64,000 nt of DNA from the human T2T-CHM13v2.0 reference genome, Homo sapiens. Both the position numbers and the translations under genes were made by a program. The notes under the pieces were generated by a model. It ran no database searches. It saw only the letters and a program-made list of their open reading frames with translations, and was not told where the DNA came from. Positions 22,951-56,780 of this stretch are shown here, piece by piece; position 1 is the first letter of the stretch; each line of letters begins with the position of its first letter. The stretch lies in the NCBI RefSeq assembly GCF_009914755.1, contig NC_060939.1, one strand, 5' to 3'.

Positions 22951-23452
22951 GGAAGGCATTTGGCTGAGTCTTTGCTAGAATGTGGGAGGGCAGGGCAGGG
23001 GCAGGGCTAAGACAATAATTTCAAGATAACTTCACTTGAGGTGGGGTGGAAAGTGCACTGAATTCATCCAACAGCCTTAGTTGTACTTTCAAGGTCGGCA
23101 TCATCCTCCCCGGCAGGCAGGTGAAGAGAGGCTCCGTGGCTTGTCCTGGCCCAGCCCTTCCGTGACAGTGCCTTTGGCCTCATGGACTGAGGTTTCAGGA
23201 AGTTTGCGACAGTGTCTGCGGGTCTGGACACTCATGTGACATGTGGAGGACGTCCTGCAACATGCTGTGGAAACACCCTCATTTGTCTCCAGCGCTGGGG
23301 ATTGCCCAGGGAAGAGCCGCCTGTTGTCCATTCCCCAGGCCTTGTAATACTTTCTCTAACTGTGCTTGGGGGTCCTGGAATTTGTGTGAGAAAATCCATG
23401 GGTCCACATCTGGGCTGTCCGGGTAGAGGGGCCATCCGTACCCCTCCCTCAC

Positions 23453-23908
23453 TGTGATGGGTGGCACTGCATCCTCTGAGGACTCGTATGTTGAAGCCCC
23501 GTCCCCTGTACCGCAGAACTGGTCCCATTTAGGTTGTTGCAGATGTAACGAGTTAAGACGAGGCCATACTGGAGTAGGGTGGGTCCCTAATGCGGTGCAA
23601 CTGGTGTCCTTATAAAAAGGGGAAATTCGGACCCAGAGACAGGCTCGCACGTAGGGAGAACACCAAGTGAAGATGAGGGCAGGGATGGGGCGAGACCTAC
23701 AGGCCAAGGAACACAGAAGATTGTGACAACCACCAGAAGTTAGACAAGAGGCCTGGAGCAGTCCCCAGTCAGGGCCCCCAGGAGGAACCAACCCTGCCTC
23801 ACCTTGATCTCAGACTTCTCGACTCCAGAGCTGTGACAAGATAAATGTCTGCTGTTGAAGCCGCACAGTTTGTGGTACTTCATGGCAATCCCAGGAGATT
23901 AATATATG
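23453..23908 (+). mobile_element. MLT1 (MLT1B-like) solo LTR
   Basis: TATGTTGAAG...CTGGTGTCCTTATAAAAAGGGGAAATT...GGAACCAACCCTGC...ACCTTGATCTCAGACTTC...TTTGTGGTACTT. Confidence 0.85.
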
Positions 23909-25903
23909 CACATCACGCAGCCCAGGACCCCAGCAGGCCTGCAGGCTCTGGCAGCGGCTGTTGGAAGTGGCCCGTGGTCTGCCCGGGGGAGACACTGACA
24001 AGGCCTCCCAGGCTGCCGTTAGCCTCCTCCGGTCTGCCCTGGCTGACTTTTCCCCCTTTCTCTTTTCCCAAAACAAACCCCAGCCCTCTTGGGACTCATT
24101 CATTTCTGTTTACCAGAAACTTAGCATGTAACTGTCTCAGAGCTGTTAAAAGTGCCGCCTCTTCACTGCAGGGTCCTTGCCTCAAGTTAATTAGCCTGAG
24201 GAAATTTCCAGACGCTCCCTTTCCAAAAGGCTGTTTGGAAAAAGCCCTCCCTGGGTGACCTCTGGCAGTGTGAGGGGCTGAGGGCTACCCTCCTCCCTGG
24301 GAGCAGACAGCTCTGCCACTTCCCCATGTGCATCCTCCAGTCAGTGACTGGACATCTCCAGGCCTCAGTTTCCCCGCCTGTGCAGCGGAGGGCTGTTAGG
24401 AGGATTAACTAGAACACTGCGGTGCTTGGTGTGTAGAGAGTCCTCTCCATGTGTTGGTTACTAGACCCTTTGTTCATGTTGTTTCCATAGAGAATAAAAC
24501 AAAACAGGAACACTTGCTTGGGGGAGGGAGGGTGCAGGAAAGGTTGTCCAGTTGCAAGCGTGAGAGAGATTTATGTGTGTCATTTTGAGCCTCTGAAATG
24601 GCAGATCCCTCCCGGGAGGGACAGTCCCTGAGCCAGCATCCCCAGCACCCCCAAGGAGTTAGAAAGGCCAAACCTGGAGTGCCGCCCAGGAACACTGCAA
24701 CAGAAAATGCATTTTAACACCCAGAGATTGGGGGTGCCCCATTACAGAGGCACTGCTTTACTGCTGGGGCCACCACCCATGCAAACCCTTTGCCTCGGAA
24801 AGACCAGCCCAGATGCCTCCCTCCAACAGAGCCAGCGTCCCTGGCTGCCCTCTGGTTCTTTCCCAGGGGCACTCCTTGCATTGCTGTGACACTGCCGTCA
24901 CTTGCACCCCCATTCATTGCTCTTTGCAGACACTTCCCTCCCCCAGCAATGTGACTGAGGAAAGAAGGAGGGTTCCATGGTGAATATGAGGGATGTGGGC
25001 ATGGCATATCTGGGAAGGAAAGGGGGACCCCCGACACCCCGTCCCAGTTCTCCAAAGCCCTCGGAGCCTGCAGAAGAGCTCTGCACGAAGGAATAGGATT
25101 GGCAGAGGGACAGAGCCTCTCTGTCAGGCAGAAGTCAAGTTGAGTGATGGGCACCCACCTGGACAGCTGAGACAGGGTCTCAATGTCTGACCAGGCTGAA
25201 GGGGAACTTGGGAGGGCTGGTTCTTAGCAATGGAAAGGTTGGCGTGACACTGAACTCTGCCTCTCGAAAGCCCGACCCCACCTATGGGAGACGGCAGCGG
25301 TAGAGGTCACCAGCATTGCTTAGAAGCAGCCCCCTGCAGACGTCTCCCCTACCCCCACCCTGGGCACCAGAAGGGGAAGCCCGCAAGAAAGGGCAAGGCC
25401 AGCGCAGGATCAAAGCTCAGCCTCCTCTCCAGCTCCAAGACTGTGGCTCTGGCTGGCATGGGAAGGGGAGATGAGTTTCAAATGGAGCTTGAGAGTGAAG
25501 ATTTAACCAGTGAACGGGATGGAATCCTAACTCCTACAAGCAGTAACCAAAAGAAGTCGAAAGCTTATGGCTCCCTAATAAGGACTTAGGGAGCTGCTGC
25601 CCAGTGGGAAAGGGGGGTTCTGCAGTTGAGAGGTAGATGCTGGAGGAAACCAAACCATATTGTGTATAAACCGCAGGGGAGAGACTCCTCAACCATATGG
25701 CTCTGCTGACCCGTGGTGAGGATGGAATGGATGAGGATGCAGGCCCTGTAACTGGATCAGTAAAAGGCCCCACCACTTGGAGCAATGAACCTTCTGTTGA
25801 GCTCCTTCACCCCCTGTTCTTCCTGCTCAATCAATTCGTAGGCCTCCATATAGTCCTTTCTTTCAGCCTGAAGAAAGGTGTCCATTACCACCCCCAGTGC
25901 CCC

Positions 25904-28914: not shown

Positions 28915-31200
28915 TGGAATCTAATCTGGGATCACACATTGCACTCATTCTTCATGTCTCTTTAATCTCATTTAGAACACCGCACCTCCTTTCCTGCTCC
29001 CTCTTTTCATGATATTGGCATGTTTGAAAAGTCTAGGCCGGTCATTTTGTAGAATGTCCTGCAGTCTAGATTTGGCTTGTTTCCTTATGACTAGATTCAG
29101 GCTAAACAACTTTTTGGGGAGAAATTAATTTTCTTAATGTTTGTTGTTGGTGTGAAGAAACGCAAATGATTTTTCATAGTAACCTTTAGCCAGTAACCTT
29201 GATAAATTATTTCATGAGCTTTGATGTTTTACCTGTTTTCTTTTAATTTTTTATGCATGCAATCATGTTATCTGTAAATAATGACAGTTTACTTTTTCCT
29301 TTCTAATCTTCACCCTTTAGTTGCCTTTCCTTGCCTCACTGCACTGAACAGACGGTTATCTCCCAAACCTCCTAACGTTCATCTCGGGCAACCATTAGTC
29401 TATTTTCCAGCTCTGTAACTTCATTATTCCAAGAATAATGGAATCATATAGTGTGTAACCTTTTGAGATTGGCTTTAAAAAAAAAATACTTCCCTTGAAG
29501 TCTATTCAAGTTGTGTGTCAATGTCGACATGATTTTTAGAACCAGACTGCACAGATCTATTAGAGAACTGATATTTTTAAATATTGAATATTCCAGTCTA
29601 TTGCATAGTACATTGCTTACTTTATTTATATCTTTAAATTTTTTCTCTAAATGTTCATCTTTTTATTCTTTTTTAAAAAAGGTGGTACATAATTTTAATT
29701 GTATTCCCCTTTTCCTATGCTTTGGAAGATTTTGTGTAGAAGCAGTGTTCTTTCTTTCTTAAATGTTTGTAAGCATTCACTTGCAAAATTGTCTGCACCT
29801 GGTTTTCTTTGTGAGCAGATTTTTAATTACAATATCTTTTTTAATTTTTTTTGATGGTAATGTGTTTCTCAATGCTGTTTGTCTTTCAGCCTCTATTTCT
29901 CCTTCACTTTTTGAAGGATATTTTCACTGGGTATAGACTTCCAGTCTGGCAAGATGGCATCAAGATGCTGTTCCTTTGTTTCCTGGAGTCCATTGTTTCT
30001 ATTTTAAAATCAGTCATCAGTCTTAGTGTTGCTCCTTTGAAGATAATTTTCTTTTTTTTTTTCCAAATGCTTTCAGATTTTTCTCTGTTTTTGCTTTTCA
30101 TCAGTTTGCTATAATGTCCCTAGATATGGTGTTGCTTCTCTCCTTCTTGGGAATTATAGTGTTGCTTGTATCTGTGGTATCCCATCTTTTATTCATTTTT
30201 GAAAATTCTCTTCTTTTCAAATAGTACTTCTCCACTCTGTCTTCTCCTTTCCTCTGTGACTCCTCATAACAAATATGCTAGATATTTTTACCATACTCTA
30301 GACGCCTCTTATATTCCTTCTGTATTTTCCAACATTTTGTCTTTCTGTGCCTCAGCATGTATTTTTTTTCTGATTCCATCTCCCAATTCACTTTTTCTTC
30401 AGTTGAATTCAAACTCCTGTTAAACCAATCTATTGATTTCCTAATTTCAGTTTGTTCTAAAGTTTTAAGATTTAGGATTTCTATTTTGAATGCTTTCTCA
30501 TTCTCTGACAAAATACTTCTGTATTTCTTAAACCAATTAATTATAGCTGTATGAGGTTTGTTTCTGATAATTTCAAATCCTGGATGCTCCAAGGATATGT
30601 CCCTACTGTTCATTGATTATCTTGAGTTTTGTTAATATCTTAACCTCTACTATTCCTGGCTTTTTAAAAATTAAATGCCGGGCATTATATGTAAACATTT
30701 AAGAGGTAATTTGAGGTTCTGGATAATTGTATCTACATTTTAAGAGGATTACTTTTTCTCTAGGCAATGAGACTAGAAGCCCCAGTTACCCCAGGTCATC
30801 TTAATATCATCAGGGACTGACATAATTTTGCGGTTGGTCTTCAGTTCCTTTGAGGGCTGATCCCTTTTTAGTATCCCCAGGTCAAAATGATTTCAAATTC
30901 TGAGCTAACTTTTCTGGAATTCCGTCTCTTTTCCATAATTTCTCACTCACTTGTTTGCTTGCCAATGATGTCAAGATTTTCTGTTGTTCTTGAGGGAGAG
31001 CTGTTCTGATTCACTCAGTCTACCATTACCAAGCATGGAACCTATTTCATGACAGTTTGTTTCTTCATGTGTTTTGTGACTTTTGATTATAAAATCATGT
31101 TCCTAGTCACTATCTTTGAGAAATCGTTAAGGCCTCAGCTTAAACCTTTTGGAGAGAACTTATATTTGCTTATGCTAGATGCCAGGAAGCACAGTCAACT
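28915..31200 (-). mobile_element. Patchwork of old L1M fragments, including an ORF1 remnant
   Basis: Minus-strand IIFKGATLRLMTDFKIETMDSRKQ resembles the L1 ORF1p C-terminal domain. Confidence 0.65.
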
Positions 31201-31226
31201 TCAGATCACTTTAAACTAAAATTTCT

Positions 31227-31512
31227 GGCTGAGAGCAGTGGCTCATGCCTGTAATCTCAGCACTTCGGGAGGCTGAGGCAGGTGGATCACCTGAAGTCAG
31301 GAGTTTGAGATTAGCCTGGCTAACATGGTGAAACCCCATCTCTACTAAAAATACAAAACTTAGCCGGGCATGTTGGTGGGTGGCAGTAATTCCAGCTACT
31401 TGGGAGACTGAGGCAGGAGAATTGCTTGAACCTGGGAGGTGGAGGTTGCAGTGAGCCAATGCGCTCTAGCCTGGGTGACAGAGCGAGACTCCGTCTCAGA
31501 AAACAAACAAAC
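31227..31512 (+). mobile_element. Alu (AluS)
   Basis: Dimer with a short internal deletion. Confidence 0.93.
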
Positions 31513-31515
31513 CCA

Positions 31516-31890
<375 letters not shown>

Positions 31891-32424
31891 TCAAATAGGG
31901 ACAGATGGTTAGGAATGTGTTAGGGGAATGTTTTATTTCTTTGCTTCTGTGCTCACCCACTGAAGGTATTGAGTTCTGGGATTTCTGACTTTATGCAGGG
32001 GTCTCTGGTCAGAACTCTTCCTCCAGCCCAGCTCCCCTCTTACTTTGGTCATTTGTACCCAGCATAGTTCAGTGTAACTGTGGTTCTAGGCGACTGGAAA
32101 CCAGCAGAAGCCTTCAGGACAAAATTCAGCTCACTCATACAGGATTTTGATTCCAATGGAATTTCTGCCCTCTCATTGTTTTCCTTATTTTATTGCTATC
32201 TCAGTAGAACTTTAAATAAATAAATAAAGCTAAAATTATTTTATTTGCCATTTTTATATGTAATGATCTCGGAGGGATTCTTGAACAGATGTGGTCTACA
32301 GTCTACAGCTAACATGTAGCTGCCTGCTTTCACTGTGTTCACTCTTCAGATTAATAAAATGAAAAGCAATGCTGATAATAGTGGTTTCTTTTCTTTCTGC
32401 TTTCTCCAGTAATTAGCTTATGGG

Positions 32425-32830
32425 GGACACTCAGAGGACAGGATTTAGGATCAGCAGACCTGGGTCTGCCTCCCATCTCCACTGCTAAGAGTTGAATCAG
32501 TCCATGCAGGCCACTCCCCATCCTCAGCCTTTTCTTCTGTCAAATGAACAATATAATCCCCTAGTTTTAGGGAATTTTGAGGAATACATCAGATTACCAA
32601 ATCGTGAGTTCCTTGAGCTGATAAAGAGTGAGCACTTACTGTGTGTAAGGCAACTTTCCTAAGTGCTAGGGATACAAAAGTGAACAAAACACACAAAAAA
32701 TGTGTCTGTGTGTGTGTGGGGGTTGGTGTGGATGTCCACAGGCATACATGTGTGGTAGCAGACAATAATATAAGAAAAATAAAGTAAAATATATAGTGTT
32801 TTAGGTGGTAGTAATTCCTATGTCAAACAA
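32425..32830. mobile_element. MIR (+) followed by L2 (-) fragments
   Basis: MIR-like CAGACCTGGGT...TCTGTCAAATG; L2-like GAGCACTTACTGTGTG...CTAAGTGCTAGGGATACA..AGTGAACAAAACA...GTAAAATATATAGT. Confidence 0.65.
32514..32718 (+). repeat. Inverted repeat, left arm (donor copy)
   Basis: Reverse complement of 35108-35319; about 14 substitutions plus small indels by hand alignment. Confidence 0.95.
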
Positions 32831-33453
32831 CAGCGCCGACGAAGTAGAGGGGATAGGAATGCGTGTGTATGCCTGTGTGGGCACGTTCGCTACCTCTGCA
32901 TCCCAGGCACCTAGACACGATCTGGCTCAGAGGGGAAGCTCAAAGAATGTTTGATGGATGAATTAACACTCATAGGACACTTACTACCATGCCTGGCGAA
33001 TAACAGTAGCTTTTGGTTTTAGAATGGATGCAGTTGCTATTGGGCTCCCCTCTTTATGTCCAGTTGATGCAAGTAGGTTAGGGGGTCTCTAGAGGCTCAC
33101 AAAGCTGTGCTTGGCTCAGAAGTTATCCAGATAAAAACTAGTATAGGAATCCAACTCCCCTCCTCCCTCCATCTTTCACCCCTGCAAATCTGGTGAGCTC
33201 CATGAAGCTTTCCTCCCCAGGTGACGTTGTTGCTGCTGTACTTAAGGGACAGCACAGGCCACCTGGGTGTGGGACAGAGCTGACACCTTCCTGTCTGGGC
33301 TCTTCCAGCCTTCACTCTAGAACGAAGCGGGAAGCCTCAGGTCCAAGGGGAGAGCCGCCGCAAAGGCCGCGTTGAACGCCGAGGTGCACGCGCAGGTACT
33401 GGCTAAGTGCGCGCCAGGGTGCTCGGGAGGGGGCGGGTGCGGGCCGCACTGCC

Positions 33454-34490
33454 GGGCGGGGTGCGCGAGTGAGGAGGGCGGGGTGCGCGAGAGAGGAGGG
33501 CGGGGTGCGCGAGTGAGGAGGGCGGGGTGCGCGAGTGAGGAGGGCGGGGTGCGCGAGTGAGGAGGGCGGGGGAGTGCGCGAGTGAGGAGGGCGGGGGAGT
33601 GCGCGAGTGAGGAGGGCGGGGTGCGCGAGTGAGGAGGGAGGGGTGCGCGAGTGAGGAGGGCGGGGGAGTGCGCGAGTGAGGAGGGCGGGGGAGTGCGCGA
33701 GTGAGGAGGGCGGGGGAGTGCGCGAGTGAGGAGGGCGGGGGAGTGCGCGAGTGAGGAGGGCGGGGTGCGCGAGTGAGGAGGGCGGGGGAGTGCGCGAGTG
33801 AGGAGGGCGGGGGAGTGCGCGAGTGAGGAGGGCGGGGGAGTGCGCGAGTGAGGAGGGAGGGGTGCGCGAGTGAGGAGGGCGGGGGAGTGCGCGAGTGAGG
33901 AGGGCGGGGGAGTGCGCGAGTGAGGAGGGCGGGGGAGTGCGCGAGTGAGGAGGGCGGGGTGCGCGAGAGAGGAGGGCGGGGTGCGCGAGTGAGGAGGGCG
34001 GGGGAGTGCGCGAGTGAGGAGGGCGGGGTGCGCGAGAGAGGAGGGCGGGGTGCGCGAGTGAGGAGGGCGGGGGAGTGCGCGAGTGAGGAGGGCGGGGTGC
34101 GCGAGTGAGGAGGGCGGGGGAGTGCGCGAGTGAGGAGGGCGGGGTGCGCGAGTGAGGAGGGCGGGGTGCGCGAGTGAGGAGGGCGGGGGAGTGCGCGAGT
34201 GAGGAGGGCGGGGGAGTGCGCGAGTGAGGAGGGCGGGGGAGTGCGCGAGTGAGGAGGGCGGGGGAGTGCGCGAGTGAGGAGGGAGGGGTGCGCGAGTGAG
34301 GAGGGCGGGGGAGTGCGCGAGTGAGGAGGGCGGGGGAGTGCGCGAGTGAGGAGGGCGGGGGAGTGCGCGAGTGAGGAGGGCGGGGGAGTGCGCGAGTGAG
34401 GAGGGCGGGGTGCGCGAGTGAGGAGGGCGGGGTGCGCGAGTGAGGAGGGCGGGGTGCGCGAGTGAGGAGGGCGGGGTGCGCGAGCGAGGG
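33454..34490 (+). repeat. GC-rich minisatellite (VNTR-like), 44 units of 22 or 25 bp
   Basis: GGGCGGGGTGCGCGAGTGAGGA (22 bp and variants, 21 units) and GGGCGGGGGAGTGCGCGAGTGAGGA (25 bp, 23 units); 1037 bp in total. Confidence 0.98.
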
Positions 34491-34571
34491 CGTCCGGCCG
34501 GCAGGTGGCACTGTGGCGTCGCCGTGGGCCGAGCCTGGCGAAGCGCTGCTCGCCCGAGATCGCGCAGCTTG
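34491..34571 (+). other. Candidate non-coding first exon (5' end undefined)
   Basis: Ends at TTG|GTGAGT, a consensus splice donor at the downstream edge of the CpG island. Confidence 0.45.
34496..34513 (+). promoter_or_regulatory. CTCF-like motif
   Basis: GGCCGGCAGGTGGCACTG closely matches the CTCF core CCRSYAGRKGGCRS; motif match only. Confidence 0.55.
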
Positions 34572-34985
34572 GTGAGTGGCAGCGCCTGGCTTTATACTCG
34601 CGTCTCGGACACCGATGGTCATCTTCCCACGTCCGTGACTCAGTGGCCTTCCAATGCAGGCTGCGGCCTCTCAGCCCAGAAGGCCCTGGGTTCTGGTACA
34701 GGCCTTCCTTGTGGCAGACGGAAGGAAGGCTGACAAAGGGAGTTCACCGGGTTTGCCTGACTTGCCACGCTCTTCTCTCTCCGTGCCAACTTTAACCTGG
34801 GAAGCCACACATACCTCTAGGGCCTCTGATATCTTCAGTGTCCCCAAGGCCCATGCTGCTCAGAGCCTCACGTGGCCGCAAACCCAGGTGCCAGTACTTG
34901 AGAGTTGCACCTTGAGCGGGAACTGCAGAGGGTTTTAATGGCACCAGCTCCAAACATTTCGCCCACAGCGTCTGCAGTCCTCCAC

Positions 34986-35716
34986 TGCGGAAGGCAGAAT
35001 AAACGCCCCAAGGGTGTCCACATCCTACTCCCCAGAGCCTGTGAATTTGTCCCCTTACATGGCAAAAGGGAATTACAGTTGCGGATGGAATTAAGGTAGA
35101 TTAATTGCACACACAGACAGAAACACGCATTTTTGTGTGTTTTGTTCACTGTCGTATCCCTAGCACTTAGGAAAGTTGCCTTACACACAGTAAGTGCTCA
35201 GTTAATCTTTATTGACTCAAGGAACTCACAGTTTAGTAATCCGATTTATTCCTCAAAATTCCCTAAAACTAGGGGATTATATTCTCCATCTGACAGAAGA
35301 AAAGGCTGAGGATGGGGAGCTTAATGGGTAAGGAGATTAGCCTGGGTCACCCAGGTGGGCCCAATGCAATCACCTGTCCTTATAAGGAAGAGAGGCGAGA
35401 GAAAGAAAGAGAGAGAACAGAGAACAGAGAAGGCCGACAGCACCAGGAGGTCTCAGCCCGGTTTTTCTGGCTTTGGGGATGGAGGACGGGCCACGGAACA
35501 GGGCGGCCTCTGCCTAGCAGCTGGAAAAGGTAAGGGACTAGGTTCTCCCAACGAACCTCCGGAAAGAAACGCAGCCCTGCCAGCAGCTTCATTTCAGCTC
35601 AGTGAGACCTCTTTTTACTCTTTCGACCTCCAGGACTGTAAGATCATAAACGTGTGTTGTTGGAAGCCAGCAAGTTTGTGGTAATTTGTCACAGCAGTCG
35701 TGGGCCCACTAAGACA
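34986..35716 (+). mobile_element. MLT1 (MLT1D/E-like) LTR split by a 212-bp insertion
   Basis: 5' part GTCCACATCCTA...CTTACATGGCAAAAGGGAATT...GGAATTAAGGT resumes after 35319 as GGAGATTAGCCTGG...GGTGGGCCCAATGCAATCAC and ends ACTAAGACA. Confidence 0.85.
35108..35319 (-). repeat. Inverted repeat, right arm (derived copy)
   Basis: Reverse complement of 32514-32718, inserted in the MLT1. Confidence 0.95.
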
Positions 35717-35777
35717 CCTGTCGTGGGCCTCGTGTCCAGAGGCCTCAGCTGAAATGCACTGGGGGCCTGGTGGTGTG

Positions 35778-36025
35778 TGTTAGGTCCACTTGGCTTGCTG
35801 TGTTGTTCAAGTCCTCTCATTTCCTTTCTTATCTTCTGTCTGGTTGTTCTTTCCATTATTGAAAGTGGGGGACTGAGGTCTCCGACGATTATTGTAGAAC
35901 TACTTTTCCCTCCAATTCGCTCCCTTTCTGCTTTGCATATTCTGTTAAGTGCTAAATGTTTATAACTACTTATTCTTGCTGTATTGAATCTCTTCTCAAT
36001 ATATAATGTTCTTTGTCTCTTGTAA
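35778..36025 (-). mobile_element. L1M fragment
   Basis: GTGTTGTTCAAGTCCTCT...TCCATTATTGAAAGTGGGG...TCTCC.AC.ATTATTGT, antisense L1 endonuclease region. Confidence 0.7.
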
Positions 36026-36259
36026 CCTTGGACAAGATACAGACTACTTAGACTATTGAAAATCCTGACAGTGTATTTGAAACATGCACGTGGACATGGT
36101 TTTATTTTTCTCAGTTACTGCTTTCAACTGTGTGCTGATTGAAACTCCTTTCCCCTGGATAGAAGACCTATTAAAATAACCCAACTTTATTCACTAACTT
36201 GTCAACTACTTTTGGTCAGTCAGAATTTTGTCTTTGGCCAGAGTTAATCAGCTAACCCG

Positions 36260-36413
36260 TTGTCCCCAGATCATCAGTGCAGCTTCACCTGGGTACTTCT
36301 TATAAATGCAAATTCTCAGGCCCTGCCCCAGAAACTCTGGAGGTGGCCCTGCAGTCTGTGTTTAAGAAGCCCTCCAGGGGATCCTCAGGTGTGATAAACT
36401 TTGAGAATCAGCG
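36260..36413. mobile_element. MER5A-like hAT fragment
   Basis: TCACCTGGG...AAATGCAAATTCTCAGGCCC...AAGCCCTCCAGG...TTTGAGAA. Confidence 0.7.
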
Positions 36414-37090
36414 GTAACCCATCTGCAGAGGTATTTCTATTATTTCAGTAATTATATTTTTAAAATTTTACTTTCTGGAAATACTTTTTAAAATTTACCT
36501 ATTTTTTCATGTATCTTGATTCTTTTTTTCTGTTTTTATTTCTCATTTTAGGTCTTTAGTAATTTTAAGCCAATTTATCTTGTAGGCTCTGTTTTGATCA
36601 TTCTACTGGCTTTCCATCCCTGAAGTTTATTGACTTGGAGTTGCCAGTGTTTTGTAATTTGGGATTGTGAGCTGGTCTTAATGGGGACTTCATCTATTGG
36701 AATCTTCTGTACCTTACATGAGAGTGGGTGCCTCCAGAGTGCTTTTGGGTTTGCTTCAGCCAGGTGCTTGGCGTTATCACCAGCCCAGGACTGCTTTGCA
36801 TACCAATGTTTTGACCTGGGGATTTTCTGGCCCATGCATGTCATATACAGCCTAATCCCATCACATGAGTATGGGCCTGTGATGACAAATTGATAGGAGA
36901 ATCATTTTCCCTACTCAGAGCCCAGGCCAGGTCTAATATCCCTGACATAACTGCCAGTGGGGGAACTTTCTCTAGATGATGATTACTGAGAGTGCATCCT
37001 GCCCTTGAAGGACCCCTCATTTATGAGTGTTGTGGGGCAGGTCCAAGGCTTCCTCTCCAATTCCTCACAGCATTAAAACCCAAGTCCCTA

Positions 37091-37480
<390 letters not shown>

Positions 37481-40400
37481 TCATCTTTTGGCCTTTACTT
37501 TCTGTTGAACTCTGCATTTAGAGTCTGTTCTATTGCACCAAGCAATTCTGAGCATATTGCGGTGGGTGTTGCCTTTCAGGTTACCTAGTTTCTCATATTG
37601 CTGTAAATAGAAGTCCCCTGATAGCTCATTTTGAAACGTCAATCTCTCTTCCCTTCTCCACCTAGTGCAGGCTAAACCTAGTGTTTCCATAGATGGAGAG
37701 TGGGGTAGGGGCAGTTGCACATGACTCTCCTGCTTCTTGGCACTTGCTGTTCTAATGTTGGGGTCAGGAAGAGGGGCTGGCAAGGCATGACTGTGGTGAG
37801 CTCTCCTCTTGCTTTTCGGGTGGTAACTGCTGGTCCAGCTTATTGTCCACAGCTCTGCATAGGTAGGAGGTGACCAGAAACCCTAGGCATGATGAGGTTC
37901 AGCTGCCCCTGTGGACCCCCAGATGGTGGCCTCATGGTGCGTTCTGGTGCACAGGCCTTCTGCTCCATGACGTGACCCCGTAGCCCCGGTCTCCTCTGCC
38001 GTTCAGGGCCTTCAGCCTGGGCCCTAGACACGCATGCCACATCCATCTTCTCCCCTCTTGGAACCCGAGGACTCAAAGCTCTACTGGCATCCCCTCTCCT
38101 CTGTCCTCATTTCCTGTTTCCCTGGCTACAGGAACACCTGACGATGCCCATTTGCAGCAAACCAACCATGGCTCAGAATTCCTCCAAGCTCAGTCATGCT
38201 CTGAGGGCATGTGAAAAGAATGCCCTGCAGAGGAGGAGAGATTTGTTTGTGGCCTTGATGTCATTTGAGATTCTGAGTGTCCAACTGGGGAAATCAACGT
38301 TTCCAGGTGGAAACAAAGGGGGCTGCAGAAAGCTGCCCACCCAAGCCAAGGGTCCCTGTTTTGCTGAGTCTAGCGAGGGACTTCCTGTCCCCACTGCTCC
38401 ACTCCCTCCTCCAGCCCAACTCTCCCTGAGGCAGATGGCAGCAGAGAGAGGAGCAGGGGTTTCCAGGTCAGGCGAGAGTCCTCAGTGGGAGCCTGCTGGG
38501 AGGTGGTTTTCTGCCTGAAAGCAGAAGTGGTGGTGTGACAGTCCGTGGACACCAGAGTAGGGACAGAAAAATTGTCTCAGACCCCATCTACAATAAAAAT
38601 GTATACAAAGGCCTCCCATCCTAGGGGCAGGTATGTGCCTAGAAAGTACCCCTTCTGGCTCTGCCAACAGCTGTACCAGCTTCATTTGCTGGAGGTGAAG
38701 AGGCGGCCACATGACCCTGGACTGGCCGGCGTGGTGGGGTCGGCACGCAGGTCTTGACTGCAGCAAGTTCTATGTGTTTGTGCACAATTAGCCAGATAGC
38801 CTCTCCTCTGGGGAACCAGTTCATTCCAAGCCAAGAGTAGATGAGTGGGCCCTGTGCCAGGGAGACAAATGACTGGTGACACCGTGGTGTTTCACTGAAG
38901 CTCTGCTGGGGGACCCATCACAGCCTCTGCCTGAGCTGCTGGCTTTCAAGTGCCCTGGGGCCGAGCCCTGGGAATATCCTTGTTTATCTGCAGTTGCTGG
39001 CCTGGCTCCTCTTCCCCTTTCTCTATTCCTCCCTCTCTTCTCTGGGGAGCAAGCGGCCCACCCCCACCCCTGTACCACTGGGTCCTGAATGTCCAAAAAG
39101 CCAAGGAGGTTCTGGCCTCAACTCAGCCTCTCCTTGAGGCAAATCACCTCACTTGGGAGTGGGGGTTCTTCAACTTTACACATCCCGGTTACCCAGGGGG
39201 CGTGGTGAGCATCGGATGAAAAACTGGGAGGGGGAACTTGAATGCTGCTTCTGAACGCGTATCCGGGGTGAGAGCTCATCTCCCTCCTGGATCCTGTCTT
39301 CCTGCACCAAATTGCCAAGGCCAATGCTCTGCCCCTTGGGTAGGCCAGTCCACCCCCCTTCCTGTCCACCCACCCCAGATGCCAAGTCTGTGGTGGGGTG
39401 GCCCATGCTGGGGCATGAGAAGTTTGGGGGATGAGGAGGAGAACCATATCCACCAGGGAGGACCCGGGGTGAGGAAAAGATGAGACAGGATGACACTCAG
39501 GAGAGGCCGCCTTTCAGGAGATGGACCTCAGAACGATGGCTTTTCCTTGATAACTCTAGACCTTGAGCTACACTGGCCTCTCTCTGAGCCTGCGCCAGCC
39601 ACAGGGATGTGAAGGTTGAGATATTCCATACGTGGTTGGCTGACAGGTAGCTGAGTACAGCCATTGTAGAGGGGGATCTCGCTCTGCTTAGTGACATTGA
39701 TACCTGTATCATTCAAGTGCTAGACATTTTGTTCCTGGGCATATGTCCCAAAGACTTGCACACAAAGCGACCGAGAAGTGATTTACCACAGTATTGTTTG
39801 GGGACAGTGGAGTTAGAGGCTGGCATCCATCACTGGGGAATGGGTGAGTAAAATGAGATTGTCACATGGATGACCCACAGCCACAAACAGGGTGGACACC
39901 CATCACTGTGGCTACAGCCTTAAAAATAGCGTGAGTGAGAAAAGTAAGAAGCAGGACAAAATCTCTAACACTGCATCATTTGTAGGAACCTGAAAATACA
40001 TACCTATCAATCAACTTGTCAGGTTTCTCAAGTGTGCGGAGAAAAAGAAAGATAAACATTAAATGCAACAGTAGGGATGAATGTGCAAAGGTGGGAGTGG
40101 AGAATTGGGATAAAGAGGAATAAAGTAAAGCACAGTAGGAGCAGGACCTCACATGGAGAAATTGTGCTAGCACACCATGAACTGAGCAACTGGTTGACTC
40201 TGCCCCTGAAGGAAAAGGAGCAGTTAAAGCCCTAAAGAAGTGAATGTCAGCTGCAGAGAAGGGATACGCACTATTCATCACTAAAGCATGGGCAAAACTG
40301 TGATCACAGGGCCAGCCCCTCCCTCTGCTCCCATCCACACCAACAGCACCAACTGTTGGCTAGGTCTAGAGCAGAACTCTTCCCCTTTGCCTTCTAAGAA

Positions 40401-48902: not shown

Positions 48903-51045
48903 TTTTCTGGCTTTTTCATGTTTCTTGTGTTCCTGCATTGATGTCTGCACATCTGATGGAATGATTACCTTTTCCAAACTTTACAGAGTGGTTTTTGCAG
49001 GGAAAGTCTTAGTATACCAGTTGGGAAGAATATGGTGGTTCTACTCTGCATCTGAGTAGACACAGTAGTATAACCTCCATGCAGCTGCTTCAGCTACGAT
49101 CAACATCAGCAATGACTGGGTGCCTCAGTAGCCTAGGCTATAGCAATATGTGGCAGCAGCAGTGGCAGTGTAGGTTGTTAGGATCCCAGGTGGCAACAGC
49201 TTTTGGGGTCCTCCTGTTTTTCTTTTCCCCACAATGAGAAGACTAGCTGAGAGGACCCCTTTTGATGTTCTGACACAGCCCACGAGCAGCTGCAGCAGCG
49301 TGGGGTTCCAGGTCACAGGTGACAAGAGCAAATGTGGAGCTTGGGCCCTGGACTCAGGGTCTTGAGAACGAACTGTGGCACCTGGGTCTTGGGGTACAGG
49401 TTCAATCTCTGAAGGAAGGGTTGCATGCAGACTGCCCACAGAGCCAGAGTCTATAATCTGAGGCAACTCCCAGCAGCTTGAACCCAGGCGGCCGGGTTGT
49501 AGCTGTGACTCCGACTCTAGGGGTTAGGGAATAGCACTGGCCTAGCTTCATAGAAGAAGGGGAGCTCTGGAGGTGTGAGCCTGGGCATCAGGGGTACAGC
49601 TGCAATTCAGGAACCAGAGCCAATAGGGTACAATGGCAACTCAGGCGTAGGGGGGATGAAACACCATGTAGTCATGACTCTGGACCCTGGGATGGTGGGA
49701 AATGGGAGGCTCGGTAAGGCAAGGTGAGGCTGCAACAAGGATCTCAGATTAGCAGAGTTCAGCTTTCACTTGGGTCCACAGCGCCAGTTGGGGAGGGGGA
49801 GGCAGGGAGAAGTACGACAATGGCACTATTCCTTGTGAGTGAAATGTCTCAGCAGCTCAGACTCTAGGGGTGAGTCCAGTTCCAGAGAAGCAAGGTACTA
49901 CAGTTATTTGCCCAGTAGGATGGGGTGTCGCAGCTTAGCCACTGCCCTATTTCCCTGGGACACAGGGGACCATGTCAGTTCATCCCTGGGATGTGCCACT
50001 GCTTAGCTTGGCCAAGGCATTAATTACACCGGAGGTGATGCACCATTTCAGCTGAGGCCTGGGGAGTGTGGCTGCTCTGGGCAGTCAGGGCACCATTTGC
50101 TGGAATGCAGGGTGCCACTTCAGTTCTGGCCTGGAGAGTATGGATGCTCTAGACAGCCAATGTAGCATTTCCCCAGGATGCAGTGTGCCACTTCAGCTCA
50201 GGCCTGGAGGGGCAGGGCACAGTAGCAACTGGGAGTGGTAGATGAAGTAGTTCTACAGTAGCATGGCCGCATGGGGTAGGGTGTAGCAGCAGCTCTTCTC
50301 AGGGATGGCAGACCACCAGGCAGGGATGGCCCAGTGGTGTCAAGGCCTCAGGGATGGAAAGGTGCTGAGGGTGCTGTGATCACTCACTCCTGGAGCAGGA
50401 CACACTCCAGCAGTGATTCTGGTTCCAAGATGTCATAGCACAGTAGCCAGGCCACTGGAGTGGGACACAATGTTGACTCCTTCTCTTGGGGGAGCACAGC
50501 TGTGTGAACTCCAGGCAACTCCCTAGGCTGGCCTTAGTGCCTGTGAGAACTACAGGTGTCCAAGGTGATAATGGAGGCTGATGAAGTTCTTACCTTTTCT
50601 CTGTAGGAAATAGTCCCTCCTAGTTTTTAGTTGATCCCAACTGGGAAATGGGGTGGCAGAGGTGAGCTGTGTTCCTTCCTTTCTCCGTGGGGCAATAGTG
50701 GGTTTCTTTGCTCTACAGGGTTTCTGCTACTCCTTTGATGTACTTTGGTGCCCTCCTTTAGTTATTTTCATCAAAAAGTGGTGGTTTGTTTGTTGTTTTG
50801 GCTGTCTTTGTGGGTGGATGAGTGCGAGGGTCTTCAGTCAGTCATCTTGCTGATGTTACTCTAAAACTTCGCTTCTGTTCCTAGTGTGTTGTGTTTTTAT
50901 CATGAAAGAGTGTGGTGTTTTGTCAAGTACTTTTTCTGAATCTGTTGATGATTATGCTTTTCCCCCTCCTTTTTTTGGTTAATATTTAGTTTCTCTCACT
51001 TCTATTGGTATCTTATATTATTAAATTAACATTATCTGATTAATA

Positions 51046-54611: not shown

Positions 54612-56780
<2,169 letters not shown>

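What the first reader, a model, noticed from the sequence alone, without database searches (positions are those of the whole stretch)
33454..34490. 44-unit GC-box minisatellite with an internal variant code and no CpG decay
Seen: with S=22-mer, s=GAGAGAG variant, A=GGGAGGGG variant and L=25-mer, the order is S s S S S L L S A L L L L S L L L A L L L s S L s S L S L S S L L L L A L L L L S S S plus a terminal variant. Higher-order blocks recur (sSL twice, A-LLL three times). 41 units carry GGGCGGGG (Sp/KLF box), and L units carry GCGGGGGAGT, one mismatch from the WT1 site GCGTGGGAGT. Each unit has 2-3 CpGs and none shows a TpG/CpA variant. Inference: a recently expanded, probably hypervariable array whose length and S/L ratio could tune transcription-factor load or methylation, as in other promoter GC-rich repeats.
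Basis: partly seen in the sequence, partly recalled or inferred. Interest (0 to 1): 0.72.

Follow-up and report, generated by a model that had tools for sequence, protein, structure and literature searches.

The report
GC-box minisatellite in a lncRNA promoter
A 1-kb run of 44 short G-rich repeat units fills most of a CpG-rich patch at the predicted start of an unnamed non-coding RNA on human chromosome 15; it is an ordinary member of a well-known class of repeats, likely variable in length between people, and any effect on local gene control is untested.

Summary
The unit occurs at this locus only in CHM13. The array holds 130 of the 168 CpGs of a small island that persists when the array is collapsed, and ends 1 bp before a predicted lncRNA first exon. 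The features that looked special are ordinary. Variant codes with block duplications are the described norm for VNTRs. A 177+-copy GC-box minisatellite at 4q35 also has a variant code and keeps 169 of 174 CpGs. Only four mutations built the code, so no CpG decay is modest evidence for an unmethylated germ-line island. Higher order is limited to conserved context of rare variants; there is no exact WT1 site; the PRDM9-like match is chance. Polymorphism and effects on methylation or expression could not be tested, and no locus-specific report was found. One lead: only L units carry a short-loop two-tier G4 motif. Side finding: a 205-bp inverted duplicate brackets the island. Verdict: new member of a known kind, low interest.

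The parts
33454..34490 (+). Minisatellite, 44 units of 22/25 bp, G-rich strand on +; 76% GC, 130 CpG, o/e 1.56; 41 GC boxes
33454..33563 (+). First five units, all 22-mers (S s S S S); the three last full units are also S, and L units lie only in the interior
   Evidence: order string; older units at the ends is inference
34469..34490 (+). Terminal unit with CG in place of TG, running into unique sequence
33323..34635 (.). CpG island (best-scoring segment); with the array cut to two units a 320-bp island with 44 CpG, o/e 1.09, remains
33211..33395 (+). First exon of predicted lncRNA XR_007085471.1 (LOC124907505), followed by a GT donor; the array lies in its first intron
   Evidence: hub annotation
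34492..34571 (+). Exon of the second predicted transcript; no AG before it and a GT donor after it, so likely a first exon with the array as its proximal promoter
   Evidence: hub annotation
34377..34671 (.). RefSeq functional element 'enhancer', 295 bp, over the last units and the 3' flank
   Evidence: hub annotation; that this length marks a tiled reporter (Sharpr-MPRA) region is recalled, not checked
34393..34452 (.). RefSeq functional element 'silencer', 60 bp, wholly inside the last S units
   Evidence: hub annotation; the length fits two merged 50-bp bins at 10-bp step of ATAC-STARR-seq; the assignment is inferred
32514..32718 (+). Left arm of an inverted duplicate (205 bp); part of it has 80-84% matches elsewhere in the genome
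35108..35319 (-). Right arm (212 bp): 188 of 205 aligned bases identical to the left arm; sits inside an LTR-like repeat
34985..35097 (+). First piece of an LTR-like interspersed repeat (MLT1 type, name recalled); the element goes on at 35331-35697

Best explanation
This is a single-locus GC-rich minisatellite that fills most of a small CpG island at the predicted start of an unnamed lncRNA; it likely grew by repeated duplication of one 22-bp GC-box unit, likely varies in length between people, and likely acts as a passive extension of an open, unmethylated SP/KLF-type promoter with at most small local effects. Steps: (1) shown: a 320-bp island remains without the array, which adds 130 CpGs and 41 GC boxes; (2) shown: four changes (T>A, C>A, a 3-bp GAG insertion, a terminal T/C difference) make the whole code, and rare variants recur in the same context; (3) inferred: units and blocks were copied by slippage, unequal exchange or conversion, with the later L unit spreading in the interior; (4) inferred: the array is unmethylated in the germ line, so CpG transitions are no more frequent than other changes; (5) inferred: SP/KLF factors bind the boxes and the region behaves as promoter chromatin.
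For: Anatomy and order; single locus; island persists when collapsed, array holds 130 of 168 CpGs; array ends 1 bp before a likely first exon (hub annotation). Mutation spectrum: no CpG transition among the 2 internal substitutions has probability 0.67 if CpGs mutate like other sites and 0.05-0.10 at 10-15-fold CpG rates (0.55 against 0.01-0.03 if the terminal change counts as a third) (fold values recalled). Comparators: three near-perfect GC-box arrays on chr1 show 0 of 5, 0 of 10 and 0 of 45 decayed CpGs; the 4q35 23-mer has 177+ copies, four main variants and 169 of 174 CpGs kept, 2 CpA. Variant motifs reshaped by duplication and deletion are the usual VNTR pattern (Course 2021, PMC8327921, section 7). 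ATAC-STARR silent regions are about 75% promoters and enriched for SP/KLF motifs (PMC9435738), which fits the silencer call over the last units.
Against: Polymorphism was not tested: one haplotype only. The array is extreme for its kind: the longest and highest-scoring of 32 GC-box cluster loci taken from chr1, 33 of the 1,733 genome-wide triple-box matches, and 3 CpG per unit against 1 in the 4q35 array, so a larger effect than 'passive' is possible. GC-rich VNTRs are over-represented among methylation-associated VNTRs. No match to a recalled 10-bp SP1 consensus (0 hits). The lncRNA is only a predicted model. The mutation-spectrum argument rests on 2-3 events.
Confidence: 0.6

Rival explanations
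1. Length or motif content works as a real control: long alleles attract methylation and silence the island (or add SP/KLF sites and open it), making this an mVNTR/eVNTR for the lncRNA.
For: Each added unit brings 3 CpG and a GC box, and 77% of the island's CpGs are in the array. Class precedent: 1,480 mVNTRs, GC-richer than average; CpG-rich VNTR insertions under methylation outliers (PMC13278280 passages); 9,422 VNTRs with an expression-associated motif. Reporter-type elements overlap the last units (hub annotation).
Against: No row for this locus in the supplement files that could be searched (incomplete, and hg38 coordinates are estimated). Only 163 eVNTRs were fine-mapped as likely causal in Lu 2023. 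The nearest protein-coding gene presents its 3' end 43 kb away and its promoter about 415 kb away (hub annotation).
Confidence: 0.2
2. The L unit spread because it folds: its five-G tract completes a short-loop two-tier G-quadruplex motif inside one unit, which would stall replication and favour copying of L-rich blocks; S units need two units and a 14-16 nt loop.
For: 23 short-loop two-tier motifs, all of the one form that needs the five-G tract, equal to the 23 L units; none in S, s or A. G4Hunter mean 1.43, every 25-nt window at least 1.2. L units are the majority and lie only in the interior. Non-consensus, short-loop G4s destabilise CEB1 in yeast (PMC5491262 passages).
Against: No three-tier motif with loops up to 12 nt (0 found); G4Hunter is nearly equal for S and L (1.41, 1.44) and never reaches 2; two-tier DNA G4s are usually weak (recalled); the folding energies use a G4 model not made for DNA. 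The destabilising CEB1 forms need three G-triplets with one-base loops; this unit has two.
Confidence: 0.08
3. The array is methylated, and CpG decay is missing only because it is too young and homogenised too fast; it has no part in promoter function.
For: Only 2-3 point changes exist in the whole array; the 4q35 array also keeps 169 of 174 CpGs although its flank is not CpG-dense (9 CpG in 432 bp); the terminal CG/TG difference may be an old CpG transition.
Against: Likelihood ratio of about 7-50 for unmethylated from the mutation spectrum; both flanks keep CpG o/e of 0.65-0.9; reporter elements that overlap it imply open chromatin if my reading of their origin is right.
Confidence: 0.1
4. 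The length or the code is an assembly or cell-line peculiarity of CHM13.
For: One assembly only; G-rich tandem arrays are hard to sequence (general knowledge).
Against: Only four discrete unit types with no singleton among 43 full units, which random sequencing error would not give; 1 kb is far below long-read length.
Confidence: 0.02

Closest known systems
Human GC-rich minisatellite VNTRs with internal motif variation (Course 2021, PMC8327921; Lu 2023, PMC10234305; minisatellite variant repeat codes, recalled)
   Same: Unit of 7 bp or more, single locus, several motif variants, blocks recurring by duplication, about 2 Mb from a chromosome end (chromosome length recalled).
   Different: Allele variation and human-specific expansion are not shown here; 3 CpG per 22-25 bp is high for the class.
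mVNTR/eVNTR promoter repeats (Garg preprint 10.1101/2020.12.16.423078: CSTB 12-mer, MAOA 30-mer, TRIB3 33-mer are named there)
   Same: GC-rich repeat directly upstream of a transcript start, inside an island, with factor-like motifs in every unit.
   Different: The transcript is an uncharacterised predicted lncRNA; no association with methylation or expression was found or could be tested.
4q35 23-mer GC-box minisatellite (G000:C4:192327430 onward, L067), seen here
   Same: GC box in nearly every unit, four main variants, CpG kept in 169 of 174 units.
   Different: At least four times longer, 1 CpG per unit, 65% GC, unrelated spacer.
G4-forming minisatellites CEB1 and CEB25 (PMC5491262)
   Same: G-rich, strongly skewed, G-tracts separated by one base.
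   Different: Two G3+ tracts per unit and a 14-16 nt loop for a three-tier fold; no evidence of folding or instability here.

Membership tests
Minisatellite VNTR | Head-to-tail array of units of 7 bp or more | tested here: met
   22/25-bp units, 44 copies, TRF score 1591
Minisatellite VNTR | Single locus, not part of a retrotransposon such as SVA | tested here: met
   All 43 matches with 0-1 mismatch lie here; the immediate flanks have no paralogue other than short interspersed-repeat pieces over 490 bp away
Minisatellite VNTR | Internal variant motifs rearranged by duplication and deletion | tested here: met
   Four unit types; A-LLL x3 p=0.0015 post hoc, tandem LsS-LsS
Minisatellite VNTR | Copy number varies between haplotypes | not testable with these tools
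   Only CHM13 is held; no row found in searchable supplements
mVNTR/eVNTR | Lies at a promoter, enhancer or CpG island | tested here: met
   Island 33323-34635; 1 bp before a likely first exon (hub annotation)
mVNTR/eVNTR | Copy number or motif dosage associates with methylation or expression in cis | not testable with these tools
   No cohort data; Garg tables closed; Lu 2023 file cut when stored, no chr15 hit in the part held
Higher-order repeat array | A fixed multi-unit period repeated along the array | tested here: not met
   Longest repeated block 7 units, p=0.25; 3-mer and 4-mer diversity as in shuffles
G4-unstable minisatellite (CEB1 type) | Three-tier G4 motif with short loops | tested here: not met
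   0 motifs with loops up to 7 or 12 nt; 22 with loops up to 16
G4-unstable minisatellite (CEB1 type) | Non-consensus G4 folds in vitro and destabilises the array in vivo | not testable with these tools
   Two-tier motif in 23 of 23 L units is a prediction only
PRDM9-driven hypervariable minisatellite | PRDM9 13-mer motif (recalled) beyond chance | tested here: not met
   Best match 1 mismatch; 71% of shuffled S units and 83% of shuffled L units do as well or better
WT1/EGR site cluster | Exact WT1 or EGR consensus (recalled) | tested here: not met
   0 exact WT1, 0 exact EGR; 23 one-mismatch words

The most novel reading that the evidence does not exclude
The 3-bp insertion that turns S into L switches on both an EGR/WT1-like site and an intra-unit G-quadruplex, so the S/L ratio, not the length, sets the methylation and activity of this promoter and drives the array's own growth; the whole island also sits between inverted arms that could flip it.
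Probability: 0.06. Interest if true: 0.55.

Novelty: new member of a known kind. Interest (0 to 1): 0.2.

Why it matters
As it stands it matters little: one more promoter-island minisatellite beside an uncharacterised lncRNA. Its use would be as a clean test case: a two-letter (S/L) code, 77% of an island's CpGs in the array, and a single locus make it easy to ask with phased long reads whether CpG-island size or motif mix changes methylation. A motif-ratio effect through a variant-specific G4 would be a real addition to VNTR biology.

Tried and rejected
PRDM9 motif as the driver: chance level. Fixed higher-order repeat: not supported. 'No CpG decay' as a surprise: common in pure arrays. WT1, EGR, NRF1, BANP, E2F and AHR consensus words (all recalled): 0 exact hits. 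Paralogous arrays or a segmental duplication: none. Degenerate proto-units in the 5' flank: p=0.29 against shuffles. Coding potential: the + strand has 13-14 stops per frame; the - strand is open in all three frames, which follows from its lack of T-A and T-G-A words and is no sign of a gene. Structured RNA: 0 Rfam matches in 30000-38000. Gene conversion between the inverted arms: the longest identical run (about 47 bp) is within what 8% divergence gives (my estimate from the mismatch positions). Literature: full-text searches for ADAMTS17+VNTR+methylation (0 papers), chr15+10046+tandem repeat+methylation (7 listed, none on this locus by title or abstract start), chr15+99927+repeat (0), 15q26.3/minisatellite/VNTR/ADAMTS17/LOC124907505 (744 papers with 2 terms, 30 listed, none with the LOC id), and the unit sequence on both strands (0). 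Supplement searches found no row for the locus, with the gaps told in the full report. The journal versions of Garg 2021, Sulovari 2019, Jadhav 2024 and Ernst 2016 were not held under the ids tried. Twelve chr2 places and four distal chr1 places of the comparator list were not examined as sequence.

Full report
Observation. The window is chr15:97,650,001-97,714,000 of the held assembly. TRF reports one minisatellite at 33453-34476, period 25, 43.2 copies, 92% matches, score 1591. The array is 76% GC with 130 CpG.

Order of units. I tested 7 statistics against 20,000 shuffles of the unit order. Rare variants keep their context: A is followed by LLL 3 of 3 times (p=0.0015, pattern chosen after the fact) and s by S 3 of 3 times (p=0.03); there is one tandem block LsS-LsS. 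But sSL twice has p=0.08, the longest repeated block (7 units) p=0.25, and 3-mer, 4-mer and neighbour statistics are as in shuffles (p=0.21-0.60). The order records descent by copying of short blocks, not a higher-order repeat. S-type units hold both ends and L units lie only inside, which suggests that L is the later unit (inference).

Uniqueness and surroundings. All 37 exact and 6 one-mismatch matches of the 23-base core in the genome lie in this array; 8 isolated three-mismatch hits elsewhere compare with 13 for the reversed control. The flanks have no paralogue apart from short interspersed-repeat pieces and an inverted duplicate described below. The best-scoring CpG island runs 33323-34635; the array supplies 130 of 168 CpGs in 33280-34700, and with the array cut to two units a 320-bp island with 44 CpG (o/e 1.09) remains. 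So the array grew inside an existing island. By the hub's annotation it lies in intron 1 of one predicted transcript of LOC124907505 and ends 1 bp before the exon 34492-34571 of the other; that exon has no AG before it and a GT donor after it, so it is likely a first exon. RefSeq lists an enhancer (34377-34671) and a silencer (34393-34452) over the last units. The 60-bp length fits merged 50-bp bins at 10-bp step of ATAC-STARR-seq, whose silent regions are about 75% promoters and are enriched for SP/KLF motifs (PMC9435738, passages); tying this element to that study is my inference, and reading the 295-bp element as a tiled reporter region is recalled.

No CpG decay. The whole code comes from four changes. 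With 6 CpG bases per 22-mer, having no CpG transition among 2 internal substitutions has probability 0.67 at equal rates and 0.10-0.05 at 10-15-fold CpG rates; counting the terminal change as a third non-CpG event gives 0.55 against 0.03-0.01 (fold values recalled). That is modest support for an unmethylated germ-line island. The terminal unit has CG where the others have TG, so a CpG transition fixed in the founder cannot be excluded. Comparators: the pattern of three GC boxes 10-30 bases apart has 1,733 matches in the genome, of which the first 100 were listed and 33 belong to this array. I examined 32 chr1 places from that list (4 distal chr1 and 12 chr2 places listed were not fetched); 26 of 32 had a TRF array with a GC box, none as long or as high-scoring as the target (next: a 31-mer, 22.7 copies, 6 of 22 CpG sites decayed); the three near-perfect arrays with at least 4 copies showed 0 of 5, 0 of 10 and 0 of 45 decayed sites. 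A tighter pattern (444 matches, first 100 listed) showed a longer array at 4q35: 23-mer, at least 177.5 copies in the stretch fetched, 91% matches, four main variants, CpG kept in 169 of 174 parsed units, CpA in 2, lost otherwise in 3. GC-box minisatellites with a variant code and almost no CpG decay therefore exist elsewhere; this one stands out only by its CpG density and island setting.

Mechanistic leads. The minus strand has a one-mismatch match to the recalled PRDM9 13-mer in 43 places, but 71% of shuffled S units and 83% of shuffled L units do as well: rejected. G4Hunter averages 1.43 (S 1.41, L 1.44, maximum 1.76); three-tier motifs need a loop of over 12 bases. In CEB25 and CEB1 only short-loop G4s caused instability in yeast, and CEB1 needs three G-triplets with one-base loops (PMC5491262, passages). 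One difference between units is real at sequence level: a short-loop two-tier motif occurs 23 times, always in the form that needs the five-G tract of L. Whether it folds is untested, and two-tier DNA G4s are usually weak (recalled). No Rfam family matches 30000-38000.

How it most likely works. Shown: composition, single locus, island setting, position before a likely transcript start, block-wise copying. Inferred: growth by slippage, unequal exchange or conversion; length polymorphism (I put this at about 0.85 from the class, untested); an unmethylated, SP/KLF-bound, open state; small and local effects of allele length. Confidence 0.6. Rivals: a true methylation or expression control (0.2), a methylated and inert young array (0.1), G4-driven spread of L (0.08), assembly peculiarity (0.02).

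Comparison with what is known. Course 2021 (PMC8327921; abstract, section 7, passages) finds that most of 53 VNTRs examined hold several motifs and differ by duplications and deletions of blocks. The Garg preprint (10.1101/2020.12.16.423078; passages and section 21) reports 1,480 methylation-associated VNTRs, GC-richer than average; its one chr15 example is another locus. Lu 2023 (PMC10234305; passages) reports 9,422 VNTRs with an expression-associated motif and 163 fine-mapped. PMC13278280 (passages) notes CpG-rich VNTR insertions under methylation outliers; a panepigenome preprint (10.64898/2026.08.19.745838; passages) notes structural variants that make or remove islands; neither names this locus in its main text. 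So it works like a promoter-island VNTR and meets the sequence tests of the family; the defining test, allele variation, could not be run.

Is the locus in print? Five full-text searches found nothing on it. Supplement searches used hg38 prefixes 99926-99929, which I estimated from recalled ADAMTS17 coordinates and which may be off, and exact CHM13 prefixes for Porubsky 2025. No row for the locus appeared in: Course 2021 (3 files, file 1 not searched); Zhang 2024, PMC11701250 (4 files); Gunasekara 2019, PMC6545702 (one small file only); Lu 2023 (file 4 cut, file 1 not searched); Linthorst 2020, PMC7608644 (2 of 4 places of one term not shown); Eslami Rasekh 2021, PMC8096271 (file cut; method limited to short arrays, recalled); Porubsky 2025, PMC12240836 (12 of 16 files; main-text passages). 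For Zhang, Gunasekara, Linthorst and Eslami Rasekh I saw only these supplement searches and, where listed, the start of the abstract. The Garg tables, the likeliest place for an association, were closed. The array is surely in automated repeat catalogues (inference); absence of a description is not established.

Side finding. Arms at 32514-32718 and 35108-35319 are inverted copies, 188 of 205 aligned bases identical (8.3% different), each other's only close match in the genome. The right arm sits inside an LTR-like repeat: in two other genomic copies the pieces matching 34985-35097 and 35331-35697 are about 25 bases apart, here 233. The right arm is thus likely a templated, inverted insertion copied from 2.4 kb upstream, some 30-40 million years old by recalled primate rates. 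Because the repeat is collinear across the arm, the held haplotype is not inverted; short arms at 92% identity make recurrent flipping unlikely but it was not tested.

Verdict. Real, exactly as described, and ordinary in kind: a new member of the known class of GC-rich promoter-island minisatellites. Interest 0.2. The boldest reading left open, control by the S/L ratio through an L-specific site and G4, has probability about 0.06.

Noticed in passing
window 32514-32718 and 35108-35319: 205/212-bp inverted duplicate (8.3% different) bracketing the island at 2.4 kb; the right arm interrupts an LTR-like repeat (34985-35097 and 35331-35697), so it is likely an old templated inverted insertion; could in principle support inversion of the promoter.
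   Followed up: partly
window 34469-34490: The terminal unit has CG where the other units have TG or AG; it may preserve the ancestral, pre-expansion sequence.
   Followed up: partly
L067:431-4501 (G000:C4:192327430 onward): 23-mer GC-box minisatellite at 4q35, at least 177 copies, four main variants, CpG kept in 169 of 174 units; its right end was not reached.
   Followed up: partly
G000:C4:74182484-74182722 and L061 (G000:C1:103374433-103374615): Pure GC-box arrays: a 21-mer of about 12 copies on chr4 (from the listing) and a 17-mer of 11.3 copies with 45 of 45 CpGs intact on chr1.
   Followed up: no
window 33454-34490, minus strand: All three frames are open for 345 codons, a result of base composition; not taken as a gene.
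   Followed up: yes
window 23001-24500: The only other mildly CpG-rich kilobase in the window (27 CpG in 23001-24000), overlapping the RefSeq enhancer 23643-24507.
   Followed up: no
window 50043-50209 and 56729-56775: Two small tandem duplications: a 72-bp unit x2.3 (76% matches) and a perfect 23-bp unit x2.
   Followed up: no
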